From Escherichia coli (lineage in GTDB: Bacteria > Pseudomonadota > Gammaproteobacteria > Enterobacterales > Enterobacteriaceae): 64,000 nucleotides of DNA. Position numbers and translations under genes: made by a program. The stretch lies in the NCBI RefSeq assembly GCF_003790525.1, contig NZ_CP033635.1. The stretch is one strand, 5' to 3'. Below are positions 3,886-39,530 of the stretch, piece by piece (the first letter of the stretch is position 1; every line of letters begins with the position of its first letter). Under the pieces are notes generated by a model. It had not been told where the DNA came from, did not search any database, and saw nothing but the letters and a program-made list of their open reading frames with translations.

Positions 3886-5721
3886 TTATTTTCCTTGATT
3901 AATTAAGACAGGAATAACCTGAGTAAAATCTTCCAGTGCCTGGTGTAAATCCCACTGCTGTTCTTTATTACCGCTGGAGCACAAAATCACTTTCAGCGAT
4001 TTTAATAAGCGTAATGCCGCTGCGGGCTGTTGCTGGTGTTGTAATGCCGTCACCAGTTGCATGATGCAAGGGTTATTAAGGTTGATGTATAAACTTGAGG
4101 TTTTCGTTTTTTGGATTTGTGAAGTAAATTGCCGCGCCAGCATTAACGCTGCGGTGCTGATGCGTTTATCTGCGTCATCCTGTTCGAGAATTTGTTTTAA
4201 TTCTGCTTCGCGGTCTGGCGTAACCACTAACGGTAAAACGGCGGGTTCGAAGCGGGAGATAATTAATTGCTCGCCATCGCAGAGATGCTCTTCCAGATAA
4301 GCTACCTGCTCTTCGGGTAATTCCGCCAGGCTGAACAACTGCTCATTACCTGTTTGCGTACCGACTTCGACAATCCGGCAGTGATATAACAGCGCCCAGC
4401 GACGTAAAAATGGCACGACGGCATAGCGATCGCCACGGGCAACGGGCCGTTGCAGAATGTGGAACAACATCTCTTCAAAACCGCCGTCGCGGCTTAACAG
4501 AATATGAATGCTGTTATTAACGCGTAAATCCTTCGCCAGCAACGCCCCTTTTGACGTTGGCACCTGCAAGCGATCTTTGAGCAAATCAAACAGACGGTCA
4601 TCACATAATGCCGCACCGAGCAACGCTTCGTTGTGGCGCATTAATACACGCCGCCAGATTTCTGGCTGATTTTGTGCGAGATCGGACAAACCAGAAATCA
4701 GCGCCTCTTTTAACGCCTCCTGCACCGCAACCCAGGTTTCGTCCCGCTGGAGATCTTCCCGGCTCGCCGTAGGCGTTAGTTTCGATGACTCAATCACGCC
4801 GCCAATAAATCCGGCCCAGGGAGGTAACAACTCACGCGCTTCATCATCCAGTAACATACCGCGCAAAAACAGCGACAGGTTGCGGTTATCGCTGGTGCCG
4901 TAGGTTGCGCCATCCTGAATCCATAAAATCCCAACCGCGTCGCTCATCCCCACGGGCACCACCGGAATGGTGCAAATCGGTTCGAAGGAGGATTCAAACT
5001 GGGCGGCAAAGGCGAGATTTTTACGCTGTACCAGCGCGCGGTGCATGGTTACGCCTTCGGGGGCAACTTCACGCCACGGTGGTTGAAGTTTATTTACCGG
5101 CTCGCTGGCATCGCCGACATAGACCGGTTCGTGCAGCAATATACAGTAGCGGGAAAGAACGCGGTTCAGCAAATTGTTACTCGCCAGATGGCTGTACTCT
5201 TCTTTGAGCGTCAGAATCACCTGCGTACCCGTTTCCGAGGACTGATGCGGCGTAACGGTATATTTTTGCCCGTCGGTAGAGTGGTATTTCCAGCTCTGAT
5301 CCGGCGTTTGCCAGGATGTGGTCAACACCGTGACCTCTTTCGCCAACACAAAGGCCGACAAAAAACCGAGGCCGAACATACCAATTAAACCGGTGTTGTC
5401 ATCCTGCTGGCGCAACATTCGGGTATAACCCACGCCTACTGTCGCCAGGAAGCCGTGAATTTCACTTTCTGTCAGTCCAGCGCCAGTATCGCTAATAGTG
5501 ATAGTGGACTTCGCCACGTCTGCCACCACACGAATCGCGTTATCCTTTGGTGCATCGGGCTGCTCAATCCTGCGGCGAACGATCGCATCATGGCCGTTCT
5601 GCACCAGCTCGCGCACGGCAACCACGGGAGTGGAGTAAAGATGCTTACTGAGCACCTCAATTAAGCCGTTTAAATTAACTTCTGTAGAATATGAACTACC
5701 AGGTAACTGTAATGTACTCAT
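3886..5721 (-). CDS. Divergent Hsp90/HtpG-family (GHKL) ATPase paralog, 611 aa
   Basis: Bergerat-fold motifs in order: E38xxxN42xxD45 (RELVQNGHDA), D78TGAG (ISDTGAGL), G114MFGLGFLSAF; middle-domain signature LPPWAGFIGGVIESSKLTPTASRE resembles Hsp90 FxRGVVDSEDLPLNISRE; shorter than canonical HtpG. Confidence 0.8.
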   Translation of the reverse strand: MSTLQLPGSSYSTEVNLNGLIEVLSKHLYSTPVVAVRELVQNGHDAIVRRRIEQPDAPKDNAIRVVADVAKSTITISDTGAGLTESEIHGFLATVGVGYTRMLRQQDDNTGLIGMFGLGFLSAFVLAKEVTVLTTSWQTPDQSWKYHSTDGQKYTVTPHQSSETGTQVILTLKEEYSHLASNNLLNRVLSRYCILLHEPVYVGDASEPVNKLQPPWREVAPEGVTMHRALVQRKNLAFAAQFESSFEPICTIPVVPVGMSDAVGILWIQDGATYGTSDNRNLSLFLRGMLLDDEARELLPPWAGFIGGVIESSKLTPTASREDLQRDETWVAVQEALKEALISGLSDLAQNQPEIWRRVLMRHNEALLGAALCDDRLFDLLKDRLQVPTSKGALLAKDLRVNNSIHILLSRDGGFEEMLFHILQRPVARGDRYAVVPFLRRWALLYHCRIVEVGTQTGNEQLFSLAELPEEQVAYLEEHLCDGEQLIISRFEPAVLPLVVTPDREAELKQILEQDDADKRISTAALMLARQFTSQIQKTKTSSLYINLNNPCIMQLVTALQHQQQPAAALRLLKSLKVILCSSGNKEQQWDLHQALEDFTQVIPVLINQGK

Positions 5722-34701: not shown

Positions 34702-36525
34702 TTAATCGTCTTTCGGTGCGCGGTTGGCGCGACGACGATCGTTTTCCGTCAGGTGACGTTTACGAATACGGATAGAGGTCGGAGTCACTTCTACCAGTTC
34801 GTCATCATCGATGAACTCCAGAGCTTGTTCCAGAGTCATGCGGATAGGCGGAACCAGAACAACGGCTTCGTCAGTACCGGAAGCACGCATGTTGGTCAGT
34901 TTCTTACCGGTCAGGCAGTTTACAGTCAGGTCGTTAGAGCGGCTATGAATACCGATAATCTGACCTTCGTAAACTTCTGCACCGTGACCGAGGAACAGCT
35001 TACCGCGATCTTGCAGACCGAACAGCGCGAACGCGACCGCTTTACCCTGACCGTTAGAGATCAGTACGCCGTTCTGACGCTGACCCACTTCACCCGGACG
35101 TACGTCGTCGTAGTGGCTGAAGGTGGAGTACAGCAGACCAGTACCGGAAGTCATGGTCATGAACTCAGAACGGAAGCCAATCAGACCACGGCTTGGGATC
35201 ACGTAGTCGAGACGTACGCGGCCTTTACCGTCTGGATTCATGTTTTTCAGGTCGCCTTTACGTTCGCCCAGCGCCTGCATTACAGAACCCTGATGCTGTT
35301 CTTCAACGTCCAGAGTCACGTTTTCATACGGCTCTTGTTTACGACCGTCGATTTCACGGAAGATAACTTTCGGACGGGATACCGCCAGTTCGAAACCTTC
35401 ACGACGCATGTTTTCGATCAGAACAGACAGGTGCAGTTCGCCACGACCAGAAACGCGGAACGCATCGGCGTCTTCGGTTTCTTCTACGCGCAGCGCAACG
35501 TTGTGTACCAGTTCTTTGTTCAGACGATCCAGGATCTGACGAGACGTTACGAACTTACCTTCTTTACCGCAGAACGGCGAGGTGTTAACGCAGAAGAACA
35601 TAGAAACGGTCGGCTCATCAACGGAGAGTGCCGGCAGCGCTTCAACGTTTTGCGTGTCGCAAACGGTGTCAGAAATGTTCAGTTCGCCAAGGCCCGTGAT
35701 CGCAACGATATCGCCAGCTTCCGCCAGATCGGTTTCGATACGTTCCAGACCGAGGTGGCCCAGCACTTTACCGACTTTCGCGTTGCGGGTTTTGCCTTCG
35801 CTATCGATGATAGTGACCTGCTGGTTCGGCTTCACTTTACCGCGCTTGATGCGGCCAATGCCGATAACGCCAACATAGCTGTTGTAATCGAGCTGAGAAA
35901 TCTGCATCTGGAACGGACCGTCAAGGTCAACGTCCGGCGCAGGAACGTGGTCAACAATCGCCTGGTACAGCGGGGTCATGTCTTCCGCCATATCTTCGTG
36001 GTCCAGACCCGCGATACCGTTCAGCGCAGAAGCGTAAACGATCGGGAAGTCCAGCTGCTCGTCGGTCGCGTCGAGGTTAACGAACAGATCGAATACCTGA
36101 TCCACAACCCAATCAGGACGCGCGCCAGGGCGGTCAACTTTGTTGATAACAACAATCGGCTTCAGGCCGTAAGCAAACGCTTTTTTGGTTACGAAGCGCG
36201 TTTGCGGCATCGGGCCGTCAAATGCGTCAACCACCAGCAGCACTGAATCTACCATGGACATTACACGTTCAACTTCACCACCGAAGTCGGCGTGCCCCGG
36301 GGTATCAACGATGTTGATACGGTAATCATTCCATTTGATAGCGGTGTTTTTCGCGAGGATGGTAATCCCACGCTCTTTCTCCAAATCGTTGGAGTCCATC
36401 ACGCGCTCTTGGGTTTCGGCACGAGAGTCGAACGTACCGGATTGTTGGAGCAGCTTGTCTACCAGGGTGGTTTTACCATGGTCTACGTGCGCGATGATGG
36501 CGATATTACGCAATTTTTCGATCAC
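34702..36525 (-). CDS. typA: Translational GTPase TypA/BipA
   Basis: 607 aa; G motifs [20 protein letters not shown]-like architecture. Confidence 0.95.
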
Positions 36526-36676
36526 AACTTTGCCTCAGGCATTAGAAATAGCGCGTTATTGTACACGGATTAATCGCACTACAAAACAGGATCACAAACA
36601 TCCTCCGCAAACAAGTATTGCAGAGTCCCTTTGTGATCGCTTTCACGGAGCATAAAAAGGGTTATCCAAAGGTCAT

Positions 36677-36760
36677 TGCACCAATATGGTGCTTAATGTT
36701 TCCATTGAAGCACTATATTGGTGCAACATTCACATCATGGTGCAGCCCTTTTGCACGATG
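36677..36760 (+). promoter_or_regulatory. NtrC enhancer sites upstream of glnA (TGCACC-N5-GGTGCA type)
   Basis: TGCACCAATATGGTGCT (36677-36693), GCACTATATTGGTGCAA (36710-36726) and a further TGGTGCA...TTGCAC repeat. Confidence 0.8.
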
Positions 36761-36797
36761 TTAAGCATGATAACGCCTTTTAGGGGCAATTTAAAAG

Positions 36798-36815
36798 TTG
36801 GCACAGTTTTCGCTT
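36798..36815 (+). promoter_or_regulatory. glnAp2 sigma-54 promoter (-24 GG / -12 GC)
   Basis: TTGGCACAGTTTTCGCTT upstream of glnA start. Confidence 0.85.
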
Positions 36816-36897
36816 TATCTTTTTTACGGCGACACGGCCAAAATAATTGCAGATTTCGTTACCACGACGACCATGACCAATCCAGGAGAGTTAAAGT

Positions 36898-38307
36898 ATG
36901 TCCGCTGAACACGTACTGACGATGCTGAACGAGCACGAAGTGAAGTTTGTTGATTTGCGCTTCACCGATACCAAAGGTAAAGAACAGCACGTCACTATCC
37001 CTGCTCATCAGGTGAATGCCGAATTCTTCGAAGAAGGCAAAATGTTTGACGGCTCCTCGATTGGCGGCTGGAAAGGCATTAATGAATCCGATATGGTGCT
37101 GATGCCAGACGCATCCACCGCAGTGATTGACCCGTTCTTCGCCGATTCTACCCTGATTATCCGTTGCGACATCCTTGAACCTGGCACCCTGCAAGGCTAT
37201 GACCGTGACCCGCGCTCTATTGCGAAGCGCGCCGAAGATTACCTGCGTTCTACTGGCATTGCCGACACCGTACTGTTCGGGCCAGAACCTGAATTCTTCC
37301 TGTTCGATGACATCCGTTTCGGATCGTCTATCTCCGGTTCCCACGTTGCTATCGACGATATCGAAGGTGCATGGAACTCCTCCACCCAATACGAAGGTGG
37401 TAACAAAGGTCACCGTCCGGCAGTGAAAGGCGGTTACTTCCCGGTTCCGCCGGTAGACTCTGCTCAGGATATTCGTTCTGAAATGTGTCTGGTGATGGAA
37501 CAGATGGGTCTGGTGGTTGAAGCCCATCACCACGAAGTAGCGACTGCTGGTCAGAACGAAGTGGCTACCCGCTTCAATACCATGACCAAAAAAGCTGACG
37601 AAATTCAGATCTACAAATATGTTGTGCACAACGTAGCGCACCGCTTCGGTAAAACTGCGACCTTTATGCCAAAACCGATGTTCGGTGATAACGGTTCCGG
37701 TATGCACTGCCACATGTCGCTGTCTAAAAACGGCGTCAACCTGTTCGCAGGCGACAAATACGCAGGTCTGTCTGAGCAGGCGCTGTACTATATTGGCGGC
37801 GTAATCAAACACGCGAAAGCGATTAATGCCCTGGCAAACCCGACCACCAACTCTTACAAGCGTCTGGTCCCGGGCTACGAAGCACCGGTAATGCTGGCTT
37901 ACTCTGCGCGTAACCGTTCTGCGTCTATCCGTATTCCGGTGGTTTCTTCTCCGAAAGCACGTCGTATCGAAGTACGTTTCCCGGACCCGGCGGCTAACCC
38001 GTACCTGTGTTTTGCTGCCCTGCTGATGGCCGGTCTTGACGGTATCAAGAACAAGATCCATCCGGGCGAAGCCATGGACAAAAACCTGTATGACCTGCCG
38101 CCGGAAGAAGCGAAAGAGATCCCACAGGTTGCTGGTTCTCTGGAAGAAGCACTGAACGAACTGGATCTGGACCGCGAGTTCCTGAAAGCCGGTGGCGTGT
38201 TCACTGATGAAGCGATCGATGCGTACATCGCTCTGCGTCGCGAAGAAGATGACCGTGTGCGTATGACTCCGCATCCGGTAGAGTTTGAGCTGTACTACAG
38301 CGTCTAA
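36898..38307 (+). CDS. glnA: Glutamine synthetase
   Basis: 469 aa; starts [24 protein letters not shown]; adenylylation-site region present. Confidence 0.97.
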
Positions 38308-38368
38308 TAGTTGAAGTTGTACTACCCGGCGCAACAACGCTGGGATTTAGTTGCCGTGGAAACTTTCA

Positions 38369-38393
38369 GCCCATCTCTGCATGGGCTTTTTTC
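38369..38393 (+). terminator. Rho-independent terminator after glnA
   Basis: GCCCATCTCTGCATGGGC hairpin followed by TTTTTTCT. Confidence 0.8.
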
Positions 38394-38435
38394 TCCGTCA
38401 ATTCTCTGATGCTTCGCGCTTTTTATCCGTAAAAA

Positions 38436-38459
38436 GCTATAATGCACTAAAATGGTGCA
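38436..38459 (+). promoter_or_regulatory. glnL promoter (TATAAT -10) overlapped by an NtrC site TGCACTAAAATGGTGCA
   Basis: Sequence read directly upstream of glnL. Confidence 0.7.
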
Positions 38460-38480
38460 ACCTGTTCAGGAGACTGCTTT

Positions 38481-39530
38481 ATGGCAACAGGCACGCAGCC
38501 CGATGCTGGGCAGATCCTCAACTCGCTGATTAACAGTATTTTGTTAATTGATGACAATCTGGCGATCCATTACGCCAACCCCGCCGCGCAACAACTGCTC
38601 GCCCAAAGCTCCCGCAAATTGTTTGGTACGCCGTTACCGGAACTGTTGAGCTACTTCTCATTAAATATCGAGCTGATGCAAGAAAGTCTGGAGGCGGGGC
38701 AAGGCTTTACCGATAACGAAGTGACGCTGGTCATCGACGGGCGCTCGCATATCCTTTCTGTGACGGCTCAGCGTATGCCGGACGGCATGATCCTGCTGGA
38801 GATGGCACCGATGGATAACCAGCGCCGCTTAAGTCAGGAACAGCTACAGCACGCCCAGCAGGTTGCTGCCCGTGATTTAGTGCGCGGCCTGGCACATGAG
38901 ATTAAAAATCCGCTTGGCGGTTTACGTGGCGCGGCGCAGCTGCTCAGCAAAGCATTACCTGACCCGTCACTACTCGAATATACCAAAGTGATTATCGAAC
39001 AGGCGGACCGGCTGCGAAATCTGGTCGACCGTCTGTTGGGGCCGCAGCTGCCCGGTACGCGTATTACCGAAAGTATTCACAAAGTGGCTGAACGCGTGGT
39101 GACGCTGGTGTCGATGGAACTGCCGAGCAACGTGCGGTTGATTCGGGATTACGACCCCAGCCTGCCGGAACTGGCGCACGACCCGGATCAAATTGAACAG
39201 GTCTTGCTGAATATTGTGCGCAATGCGCTACAGGCGCTGGGGCCGGAGGGTGGTGAAATCATTCTGCGTACCCGCACCGCGTTTCAACTGACCTTACACG
39301 GCGAGCGTTATCGGCTGGCGGCGCGAATTGATGTGGAAGATAACGGGCCAGGTATTCCGCCTCATTTGCAGGATACGCTGTTTTACCCGATGGTCAGCGG
39401 CCGCGAAGGTGGCACCGGGCTTGGCTTATCCATCGCCCGTAATTTGATTGATCAGCATTCAGGCAAAATTGAATTTACCAGTTGGCCAGGTCATACCGAG
39501 TTCTCGGTTTACCTGCCTATCAGGAAATAA
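38481..39530 (+). CDS. glnL: Nitrogen-regulation sensor histidine kinase NtrB
   Basis: 349 aa; H-box [11 protein letters not shown] and HATPase N/G boxes. Confidence 0.95.

What the first reader, a model, noticed from the sequence alone, without database searches (positions are those of the whole stretch)
38308..38393. glnA 3' UTR ending in a strong terminator: candidate 3'UTR-derived sRNA
An ~85-nt untranslated tail follows glnA and ends in a GC-rich hairpin plus U-run. 3'UTR-derived sRNAs from glnA (GlnZ) have been described in enterobacteria; the geometry here is compatible with one. I cannot confirm sequence identity from memory.
Basis: inference. Interest (0 to 1): 0.2.

Follow-up and report, generated by a model that had tools for sequence, protein, structure and literature searches.

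The report
Known GlnZ/EsrF small RNA after glnA

Summary
Observation confirmed. glnA (36898-38307, +) is followed by an 85-nt untranslated tail (38308-38392). The tail ends in a 7-bp hairpin (38368-38387) and a U6 run. The terminator is moderate, not strong: -9.5 kcal/mol and 4 G-C pairs.

Interpretation supported. The tail is 84/85 identical to the E. coli O157:H7 glnA 3'UTR. That UTR is the published 85-nt "O157-type"/Class I GlnZ, also called EsrF. The window carries the exact published seed 5'-UUGCCGUGGAAA-3' (38351-38362) just upstream of the conserved terminator. The single difference, T38341, turns a G-C pair into G-U in the 5' hairpin.

I sampled 118 gammaproteobacterial glnA 3' ends, chosen only by the GlnA C-terminal coding sequence. 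The exact 12-mer is present in 82 and a one-mismatch copy in 11. UTR length in these ranges from 51 to 363 nt.

The seed region pairs with the K-12 sucA, glnP and aceE leaders at -18 to -21 kcal/mol.

Most likely mechanism: NtrC/sigma-54-driven glnA mRNA is terminated here, cut by RNase E, bound by Hfq, and represses sucA, glnP and aceE under nitrogen limitation.

Novelty: already known. Interest is low. Side notes: Rfam's Ysr49 is the Yersinia homolog, and E. coli has a weakened terminator stem.

The parts
36799..36814 (+). sigma-54-type promoter element upstream of glnA (TGGCAC-N5-TCGCT), matching glnAp2. It is the likely source of the nitrogen-limitation signal that drives the parental mRNA.
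   Evidence: Read directly from the sequence. The assignment as glnAp2 rests on established knowledge of the glnALG operon and on PMC9731577. It was not tested here.
36898..38307 (+). glnA coding sequence (glutamine synthetase, 469 aa). This is the parental mRNA of the sRNA.
   Evidence: ORF list. The protein is identical to WP_001271717.1, which is annotated glutamate--ammonia ligase in the records of four E. coli strains.
38282..38286 (+). AGUUU, a match to the RNase E consensus RN|WUU inside the end of glnA. Cleavage here would give a 109-nt precursor.
   Evidence: Motif scan. PMC9731577 reports a conserved upstream RNase E site near the glnA stop codon in K-12 and Salmonella. That this motif is that site is inference.
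38308..38392 (+). Full-length GlnZ (O157-type / Class I; synonym EsrF): the entire 85-nt glnA 3'UTR.
   Evidence: 84/85 identical to the O157:H7 3'UTR and 100% identical to strain 2014C-3075. Length and boundaries equal the published 85 nt (PMC9731577, PMC8092317).
38325..38344 (+). 5' hairpin CCCGGCG-CAACAA-CGCUGGG (7 bp, -11.6 kcal/mol). T38341 makes a G-U pair where O157:H7 has G-C.
   Evidence: Enterobacter species have an equivalent hairpin in front of the seed, with G-U or G-C at the corresponding pair.
38342..38350 (+). GGGAUUUAG, the motif reported to pair with the flhB leader in the EsrF study. GGAUU/GAUUU (38343-38348) also match the RNase E consensus; cleavage there would leave a 47-48-nt seed-plus-terminator form.
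   Evidence: Motif named in PMC8092317 and present in the window. RNase E motif scan. G38342-G38344 are predicted to be paired in the 5' hairpin, with P(unpaired) about 0.
38351..38362 (+). Seed UUGCCGUGGAAA, the base-pairing region for sucA, glnP and aceE.
   Evidence: Exact match to the seed published in PMC9731577. The identical 12-mer is present downstream of glnA in 82 of 118 sampled species, and with one mismatch in 11 more. Duplexes with K-12 target leaders are -18.4 to -20.8 kcal/mol.
38368..38392 (+). Rho-independent terminator: hairpin 38368-38387 (7 bp, 6-nt loop, -9.5 kcal/mol) plus U6 (38387-38392). It forms the 3' end of glnA mRNA and of GlnZ and is the expected Hfq-binding module.
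   Evidence: The stem columns are 99-100% conserved across 86 distinct sequences, with some G-C to G-U changes and one G-C to A-U double change. Hfq binding is taken from the literature (PMC8092317, PMC9731577), not tested here.

Best explanation
The segment is glnZ, the O157-type (Class I) allele also published as EsrF. It is an Hfq-dependent small RNA made from the 3' end of the glutamine synthetase mRNA.

Proposed mechanism, step by step:
1. Under nitrogen limitation, NtrC and sigma-54 drive glnA transcription. This is established knowledge; the promoter element is visible at 36799-36814.
2. Part of the transcripts stop at the moderate intrinsic terminator at 38368-38392. The sequence shows this directly.
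3. RNase E cuts the mRNA near the stop codon and possibly at GA|UUU (38345/38346). This releases an ~85-nt RNA and a shorter ~47-nt RNA, both carrying the seed and the terminator. This step is inferred from motifs here and from experiments on K-12 and Salmonella alleles.
4. Hfq binds the terminator hairpin and U-tail (literature).
5. The largely single-stranded seed UUGCCGUGGAAA (38351-38362), with the flanking AUUUAG, pairs with the leaders of sucA, glnP and, in E. coli, aceE, and represses them. The complementarity is shown here. The regulation was shown in the literature with the O157 allele and compensatory mutants.

The net effect is to hold back 2-oxoglutarate consumption and glutamine import while glutamine synthetase is induced. 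In cis, the same hairpin also ends and stabilises the glnA message while letting some transcription read through into glnLG.
For: - Position, strand and length: 85 nt directly after the glnA stop codon.
- 84/85 identity to the O157:H7 3'UTR. The one change preserves a base pair (G-C to G-U).
- Exact published seed and terminator (against PMC9731577).
- About half of 5,419 complete E. coli genomes carry this short form.
- In a sample of 118 glnA 3' ends chosen only by the GlnA C-terminal coding sequence, 82 have the exact 12-mer and 11 a one-mismatch copy. In 89 of these 93 loci it lies 0-12 nt upstream of the conserved terminator, while UTR length in those 89 varies from 51 to 363 nt. The roughly 19 non-Enterobacterales loci lack it.
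- Seed-region duplexes with K-12 leaders: sucA -20.4 kcal/mol (9/500 shuffles as good), glnP -18.4 (17/500), aceE -20.8 (2/500).
- The sucA leader is 100% identical between K-12 and O157:H7 strains.
- The central seed bases 38355-38360 are predicted to be about 90% unpaired.
- Published experiments: O157 GlnZ/EsrF is induced by low nitrogen and represses glnP, sucA and aceE with compensatory mutants (10.1101/2022.04.01.486790). An O157-type GlnZ of 3'UTR size was detected by northern blot, RNase E and Hfq were required for the K-12 and Salmonella alleles, and U41 matters for aceE (PMC9731577). Loss of EsrF in an hfq mutant is reported in PMC8092317.
Against: - Nothing here measures RNA in the strain the window comes from.
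- The targets are not in the window, so pairing was tested against K-12 leaders only.
- No RN|WUU motif sits exactly at the mapped 5' end (38308).
- One study reports that the 85-nt RNA is a primary transcript with opposite nitrogen regulation (PMC8092317).
- The shuffle controls for the duplexes are modest (2-17 of 500), as expected for a 12-nt seed.
- Rfam 15 has no family that reaches threshold here, and RefSeq annotates no ncRNA at this locus.
Confidence: 0.93

Rival explanations
1. EsrF model. The same 85-nt RNA is an independently transcribed sRNA with its own promoter inside the end of glnA. It is repressed by NtrC and higher in high ammonium. It acts through GGGAUUUAG (38342-38350) on the flhB leader to raise flagellar gene expression, motility and virulence.
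For: - PMC8092317 reports RACE ends identical to 38308-38392, TEX resistance, and unchanged levels in a glnA promoter deletion. It also reports a gel shift with flhB that is lost when the motif is mutated.
- The motif is present in the window.
- The K-12 flhB leader contains CCCUAAAUCCCGCC, and the duplex is -20.4 kcal/mol, or -21.3 with the O157 base.
Against: - No sigma-70-like site of at least 9/12 matches lies upstream of 38308. The best relaxed candidate scores 8/12 and is placed for a start at 38313-38315.
- Two independent groups found O157 EsrF/GlnZ induced by low, not high, nitrogen and explicitly disagree with this report (10.1101/2022.04.01.486790; PMC9731577).
- The flhB duplex is no better than shuffled controls (65/500 and 53/500).
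- The three G of the motif are locked in the 5' hairpin, with P(unpaired) about 0.
Confidence: 0.12
2. The tail is only a cis element: a terminator and 3' stabiliser of glnA mRNA, and an attenuator that sets read-through into glnLG. It has no trans-acting function.
For: - Hairpin plus U6 at the end of glnA, upstream of the separate glnL promoter region.
- Deleting the terminator slightly lowers GlnA (PMC9731577).
- The stem is weaker in E. coli than in other Enterobacterales, which would fit a tuned partial terminator.
Against: - A terminator does not need the 12-nt single-stranded block that stays invariant while the rest of the UTR changes length from 51 to 363 nt.
- In K-12-type alleles the block sits 145-153 nt away from the terminator and is still conserved.
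- Published seed and compensatory mutants show trans regulation.
- The cis role is real, but it adds to the sRNA role rather than replacing it.
Confidence: 0.04

Closest known systems
GlnZ, O157-type (Miyakoshi et al. 2022) = Class I GlnZ (Walling et al. 2022) = EsrF (Jia et al. 2021) of E. coli O157:H7
   Same: Same locus, strand, length (85 nt) and boundaries. Same seed, terminator and 5' hairpin. 84/85 nt identical.
   Different: One base differs: T38341 instead of C, a G-C to G-U change in the 5' hairpin. It lies inside the 18-nt stretch that Jia et al. predicted to pair with flhB, where it would replace a G-C with a G-U. This exact allele is rare: only the top row of 60 evenly spaced rows from 5,419 genomes carries it.
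GlnZ, K-12 type (Class III, 194-197 nt)
   Same: Same seed 12-mer, same terminator, same glnA-glnL context.
   Different: In K-12 the seed lies 10 nt after the stop codon. A stretch of about 150 nt that includes a REP element separates the seed from the terminator. The window has no REP insertion, and its seed is adjacent to the terminator.
GlnZ of Salmonella enterica (Class II, 185 nt; GlnZ1/GlnZ2)
   Same: The seed sits directly upstream of the terminator. A short ~50-nt processed form is reported, which is analogous to the 47-48-nt form predicted here from the GA|UUU motif.
   Different: [quoted passage not shown] It also has an extra G next to the seed that abolishes aceE regulation and enables deoD regulation (PMC9731577). 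The window has the E. coli U at 3'UTR position 41 (38348).
Ysr49 (Rfam RF02766, Yersinia sRNA 49)
   Same: In Yersinia similis, Ysr49 covers exactly the glnA 3'UTR: it starts 1 nt after the stop codon and ends at the U-run (151 bits). It contains the same seed and terminator. It is therefore the Yersinia counterpart.
   Different: The window scores only 32 bits against a gathering score of 95, and only the seed-plus-terminator part aligns. The 5' two thirds are unrelated. The window is not a member of that Rfam family as currently modelled.
Other 3'UTR-derived Hfq sRNAs released by RNase E (SroC from gltI, CpxQ from cpxP, SdhX from sdhCDAB-sucABCD)
   Same: Same general design: the mRNA's own terminator serves as the Hfq module, a seed lies upstream, and the sRNA acts in the same pathway as the parent gene.
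   Different: Unrelated sequences and targets.

Membership tests
GlnZ (glnA 3'UTR-derived sRNA of Enterobacterales) | Lies immediately downstream of the glnA stop codon, on the glnA strand, upstream of glnL | tested here: met
   glnA 36898-38307, tail 38308-38392, glnL from 38481.
GlnZ (glnA 3'UTR-derived sRNA of Enterobacterales) | Conserved seed 5'-UUGCCGUGGAAA-3' | tested here: met
   Exact match at 38351-38362. The same 12-mer is present in 82 of 118 sampled glnA 3' ends.
GlnZ (glnA 3'UTR-derived sRNA of Enterobacterales) | Conserved Rho-independent terminator (GCCCAU...AUGGGC + U6) at the 3' end | tested here: met
   38368-38392. Identical in O157, O111 and K-12 alleles. Stem columns are 99-100% conserved.
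GlnZ (glnA 3'UTR-derived sRNA of Enterobacterales) | Seed complementary to the sucA and glnP leaders (and aceE in E. coli) | tested here: met
   Duplexes of -20.4, -18.4 and -20.8 kcal/mol with K-12 leaders, with 9, 17 and 2 of 500 shuffles as good. The sucA leader is identical in O157:H7 strains. Targets of the source strain itself are not in the window.
GlnZ (glnA 3'UTR-derived sRNA of Enterobacterales) | Stable small RNA that accumulates under nitrogen limitation, needs Hfq, and is released by RNase E | not testable with these tools
   Known only from the literature for near-identical or related alleles (PMC9731577; 10.1101/2022.04.01.486790; PMC8092317). RNase E-type motifs are at 38282-86 and 38343-48.
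O157-type / Class I GlnZ (EsrF) | 85-nt 3'UTR, seed adjacent to the terminator, no REP or 98-nt insertion | tested here: met
   85 nt. Gapless alignment with O157:H7 F1273 with one substitution. The O111 and K-12 alleles need insertions of 145 and 112 nt.
Rfam RF02766 Ysr49 | Score at or above the family's gathering threshold (95 bits) | tested here: not met
   32.3 bits, E = 0.0014, with only the seed-plus-terminator part aligned with confidence. Yersinia similis scores 151 bits.

The most novel reading that the evidence does not exclude
The most novel reading my evidence does not exclude concerns two features of the short E. coli allele that may be functional tuning rather than neutral drift. 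The first is the E. coli-specific loss of the eighth stem pair of the terminator: C38380 where 82 of 86 distinct enterobacterial sequences have G. This could set the ratio of GlnZ release to glnLG read-through. The second is the 5' hairpin with its GGGAUUUAG motif, which could form a second, strain-type-specific targeting module (flhB/motility) that REP-containing K-12-type alleles lack. If so, the three E. coli glnZ alleles would wire nitrogen status to different outputs.
Probability: 0.08. Interest if true: 0.35.

Novelty: already known. Interest (0 to 1): 0.1.

Why it matters
GlnZ links nitrogen assimilation to carbon flux. When glutamine synthetase is induced, its own mRNA tail represses 2-oxoglutarate dehydrogenase, pyruvate dehydrogenase and the glutamine importer. 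For this window, the result simply means that a known but unannotated regulator can be labelled. RefSeq shows no ncRNA at this locus, and Rfam 15 has no E. coli GlnZ family.

The practical points are for annotation:
- The short allele is the commonest form in sequenced E. coli, at about half of complete genomes.
- A single covariance model built on the seed plus terminator would cover Escherichia, Enterobacter, Yersinia (now filed separately as Ysr49) and most other Enterobacterales.

Tried and rejected
- **Rfam scan of 36000-39500 at E <= 10.** No GlnZ family. There was only a sub-threshold hit to Ysr49 and chance hits (anti-hemB, miRNA models).
- **Rfam at gathering threshold on Yersinia artesiana, Y. 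nurmii and Entomohabitans loci.** Nothing found. Their UTRs are too short for the 124-nt Ysr49 model. Y. similis then gave the decisive hit.
- **RNAduplex with the whole 85-nt RNA against the target leaders.** It gave long, meaningless duplexes of -46 to -53 kcal/mol because intramolecular structure is ignored. Only the seed-region runs with shuffle controls were used.
- **Internal promoter for an independent esrF transcript.** None at 9/12 or better. The best relaxed candidate scores 8/12 and is misplaced.
- **flhB pairing.** Present, but no better than shuffled sequence.
- **Whole-tail folding.** z = -1.74, with 12 of 200 shuffles as good. Overall folding energy is therefore not the argument; conservation is.
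- **Minus-strand ORF 38322-38447 (41 aa) and plus-strand ORF 38351-38533 (60 aa).** I treated them as chance ORFs across a non-coding spacer and did not pursue them.
- **Strain identification.** The window is not the same strain as 2014C-3075. An ungapped comparison over 6,251 nt gave 252 mismatches. I did not follow this up.

Full report
**What is in the sequence**

The window carries the E. coli typA-glnA-glnL-glnG region.
- glnA is the ORF 36898-38307 on the + strand (469 aa). Its product is identical to RefSeq GlnA WP_001271717.1. The stop codon TAA is at 38305-38307, and glnL starts at 38481.
- The stretch 38308-38392 is 85 nt long. It reads UAGUUGAAGUUGUACUACCCGGCGCAACAACGCUGGGAUUUAGUUGCCGUGGAAACUUUCAGCCCAUCUCUGCAUGGGCUUUUUU.
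- It holds two hairpins. The first is CCCGGCG-CAACAA-CGCUGGG at 38325-38344 (7 bp, -11.6 kcal/mol). The second is the terminator AGCCCAU-CUCUGC-AUGGGCU at 38368-38387 (7 bp, 4 G-C pairs, -9.5 kcal/mol), followed by U6 ending at 38392.

'Strong' and 'GC-rich' are overstatements. The whole tail does not fold much better than shuffled sequence (z = -1.74), so the case rests on identity and conservation, not on energy.

**Identity**

A megablast of 38250-38500 against 5,426 complete E. coli genomes matched 5,425 of them at the glnA-glnL junction, in three length classes. Alignment with representatives gave these results:
- The window is collinear with E. coli O157:H7 (strain F1273). There is one substitution in the 3'UTR: T38341 where O157:H7 has C.
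- The O111:H8 allele carries a 145-nt insertion relative to the window.
- The K-12 allele has a different, 112-nt-longer middle part. In K-12 the block GUUGCCGUGGAAAC sits right after the stop codon.

These are the three published types: 85 nt in O157, 230 nt in O111 and 197 nt in K-12 (PMC9731577). In the other nomenclature they correspond to Class I and Class III (bioRxiv 10.1101/2022.04.01.486790). The same RNA was mapped by 5'/3' RACE in EDL933 as EsrF. It is 'exactly 85 nt' and starts at the T next to the glnA stop codon (PMC8092317).

The published seed 5'-UUGCCGUGGAAA-3' is present without change at 38351-38362. The T38341 change converts a G-C pair of the first hairpin into G-U. Enterobacter species have an equivalent hairpin in front of the seed, with G-U or G-C at the corresponding pair. 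I therefore read the change as neutral.

**How common is this form**

I sampled 60 evenly spaced rows from the ranking of 5,419 genomes:
- 31 rows are of the short type (about 52%).
- 11 rows are of the O111 type (about 18%).
- 18 rows match only the terminator, that is the K-12 type (about 30%).
- Only the top row is 100% identical to the window, so the exact T38341 allele is rare (below about 2%).

These are sampling estimates, not counts.

**Conservation beyond E. coli**

I wanted a sample that was not conditioned on the UTR. I therefore scanned one genome per species for a degenerate pattern encoding the GlnA C-terminus [11 protein letters not shown]. This returned 120 loci (titles).
- 118 loci had at least 100 nt downstream of the stop codon.
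- 82 contain the exact 12-mer within 340 nt of the stop codon, 11 have one mismatch, none has two, and 25 have three or more.
- The chance expectation for an exact 12-mer in 330 nt is about 2e-5 per locus.
- The 25 without it include about 19 non-Enterobacterales (Cellvibrio, Idiomarina, Marinomonas, Marinobacter, Salinicola and others). The remainder are a few Enterobacterales, among them insect symbionts, Rosenbergiella and Enterobacter sp. BIGb0383.
- In 89 loci the seed lies 0-12 nt upstream of the same terminator, while the UTR length ranges from 51 to 363 nt.
- In four loci (E. albertii, Citrobacter sp. FP75, S. enterica subsp. diarizonae and subsp. arizonae) the arrangement is K-12-like: the seed is at the stop codon and the terminator lies 80-153 nt further on.

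In the alignment of the 90 adjacent-type sequences (86 of them distinct), the flanks that were not used for selection are informative. There is a U-rich run before the seed (60-96% U), then a G (94%), then UUU (69-100% U) between the seed and the terminator.

The stem pairs are nearly invariant. There are 7 G-C to G-U changes and one G-C to A-U double change at the second pair, and 6 A-U to G-U changes at the first pair. The seed and stem columns were partly fixed by my selection filter, so their near-100% values in that alignment are not independent evidence. The 82/118 figure is.

**Mechanism**

The shown and inferred steps are these:
- A sigma-54-type element TGGCAC-N5-TCGCT lies at 36799-36814, upstream of glnA. 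This fits the known NtrC/sigma-54 control of glnA, which is established knowledge and was not tested here.
- Transcripts ending at 38392 carry the seed and an Hfq-type 3' module (hairpin plus U6).
- Matches to the RNase E consensus RN|WUU lie at 38282-38286 in the coding end (109-nt product), at 38343-38348 (47-48-nt product) and at 38362-38366. PMC9731577 shows that RNase E and Hfq are needed to release the K-12 and Salmonella GlnZ. It also shows that release from the mRNA is needed for activity in K-12. For the short allele this step is inferred.
- In the predicted ensemble, the central seed bases 38355-38360 are 86-96% unpaired.

Pairing of the seed region (38345-38367) with K-12 leaders:

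| Target | sRNA / target bases | Target site starts (nt before AUG) | kcal/mol | Shuffles as good (of 500) |
|---|---|---|---|---|
| sucA | AUUUAGUUGCCGUGGAAACUU / UAGUAUCCACGGCGAAGUAAGC | 48 | -20.4 | 9 |
| glnP | AGUUGCCGUGGA / ACCACGGUAACA | 22 | -18.4 | 17 |
| aceE | AUUUAGUUGCCGUGG / GCGCGGCAACUAAAC | 105 | -20.8 | 2 |

- The aceE duplex uses U38346-U38348. This agrees with the published finding that a U41G change in O157 GlnZ weakens aceE regulation (PMC9731577); 3'UTR position 41 is 38348.
- The 360-nt sucA leader is 100% identical between K-12 and several O157:H7 strains.
- Direct regulation of glnP, sucA and aceE by the O157 allele, with seed and compensatory mutants, is published (10.1101/2022.04.01.486790).

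**The rival EsrF account**

PMC8092317 describes the same RNA as a primary transcript from a promoter inside glnA. It reports the RNA as higher in high ammonium and as an activator of flhB through GGGAUUUAG. What I found:
- The motif is present at 38342-38350.
- The consensus scan finds no sigma-70-like site upstream of 38308. A relaxed search gives at best 8/12, placed for a start at 38313-38315.
- The flhB duplex (-20.4 kcal/mol) is matched by 65 of 500 shuffles.
- The three G of the motif are buried in the first hairpin.
- Two later studies found induction by low nitrogen and say so explicitly.

I give this account 0.12 as the main explanation. An additional flhB effect is not excluded.

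**Comparison with databases**

- Rfam 15 has no family that reaches threshold here. RefSeq annotates no ncRNA between glnA and glnL in the four E. coli records inspected.
- The best Rfam match to this region is Ysr49 (RF02766) at 32 bits against a gathering score of 95, and it aligns only over the seed and terminator.
- In Yersinia similis, Ysr49 scores 151 bits at L105 5303-5426. That interval begins one base after the glnA stop codon (5300-5302) and ends at the U-run. Ysr49 is therefore the Yersinia form of GlnZ.
- Neither GlnZ paper mentions Ysr49. Of the two papers in the library that contain the string Ysr49 (one of them an unrelated psychiatry review), the one that concerns the sRNA does not mention glnA or GlnZ.

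**Verdict**

The element is a known sRNA allele. It is not novel and is of low interest beyond correct annotation.

Noticed in passing
L105 5303-5426 (Yersinia similis); window 38288-38392: Rfam family Ysr49 (RF02766) covers exactly the glnA 3'UTR in Yersinia (151 bits) and shares the GlnZ seed and terminator. It appears to be the Yersinia GlnZ homolog filed under another name. The GlnZ papers do not mention it, and the window scores only 32 bits against it.
   Followed up: yes
window 38375 and 38380: E. coli has C at 38380 where 82 of 86 distinct enterobacterial sequences have G. That G pairs with C38375. The E. coli terminator therefore has 7 bp with a 6-nt loop (-9.5 kcal/mol) instead of 8 bp with a UUCG/UCCG tetraloop (-13.5 to -14.5 kcal/mol). 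This may relate to read-through into glnLG.
   Followed up: partly
window 36607-36714 (-): Full-length, above-threshold Rfam hit to ES222 sRNA (RF02755, 133 bits against a gathering score of 62). It lies on the minus strand in the typA-glnA divergent spacer. It is upstream of typA and reaches into the start of the palindrome-rich region upstream of glnA.
   Followed up: no
window 38393-38480: The spacer between the terminator and glnL carries TATAAT at 38438-38443. It is abutted by TGCACTAAAATGGTGCA (38443-38459), a palindrome of the kind that NtrC is known to bind. This fits the known autoregulated glnL promoter. The spacer is invariant among the four E. coli alleles compared.
   Followed up: no
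L019 (Enterobacter sp. BIGb0383), L022 and L030 (Rosenbergiella): These Enterobacterales keep the conserved terminator after glnA, but the seed has diverged by 3-5 mismatches. They are possible natural losses or retargeting of GlnZ.
   Followed up: no
L014, L021, L096, L126: The K-12-like arrangement, with the seed 2-10 nt after the stop codon and the terminator 80-153 nt further on, also occurs in E. albertii, Citrobacter sp. FP75 and S. enterica subsp. diarizonae and subsp. arizonae. The insertion between seed and terminator is therefore not confined to E. coli.
   Followed up: partly
L006 107-466 (K-12 sdhB-sucA spacer): The sucA leader query hit a median of 39 places per E. coli genome because of a repeated (REP-type) element in its first ~135 nt. 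The part holding the predicted GlnZ site (query 253-274) lies in the unique segment, which matched at 99% identity or better in most sampled rows. About ten of the 40 rows (for example ATCC 25922) matched at only 91-93% overall, so the site was not confirmed intact in those strains.
   Followed up: no
window 38250-38500 against E. coli genomes: Two of the 5,425 matches to the glnA-glnL junction are on records classed as plasmids rather than chromosomes.
   Followed up: no
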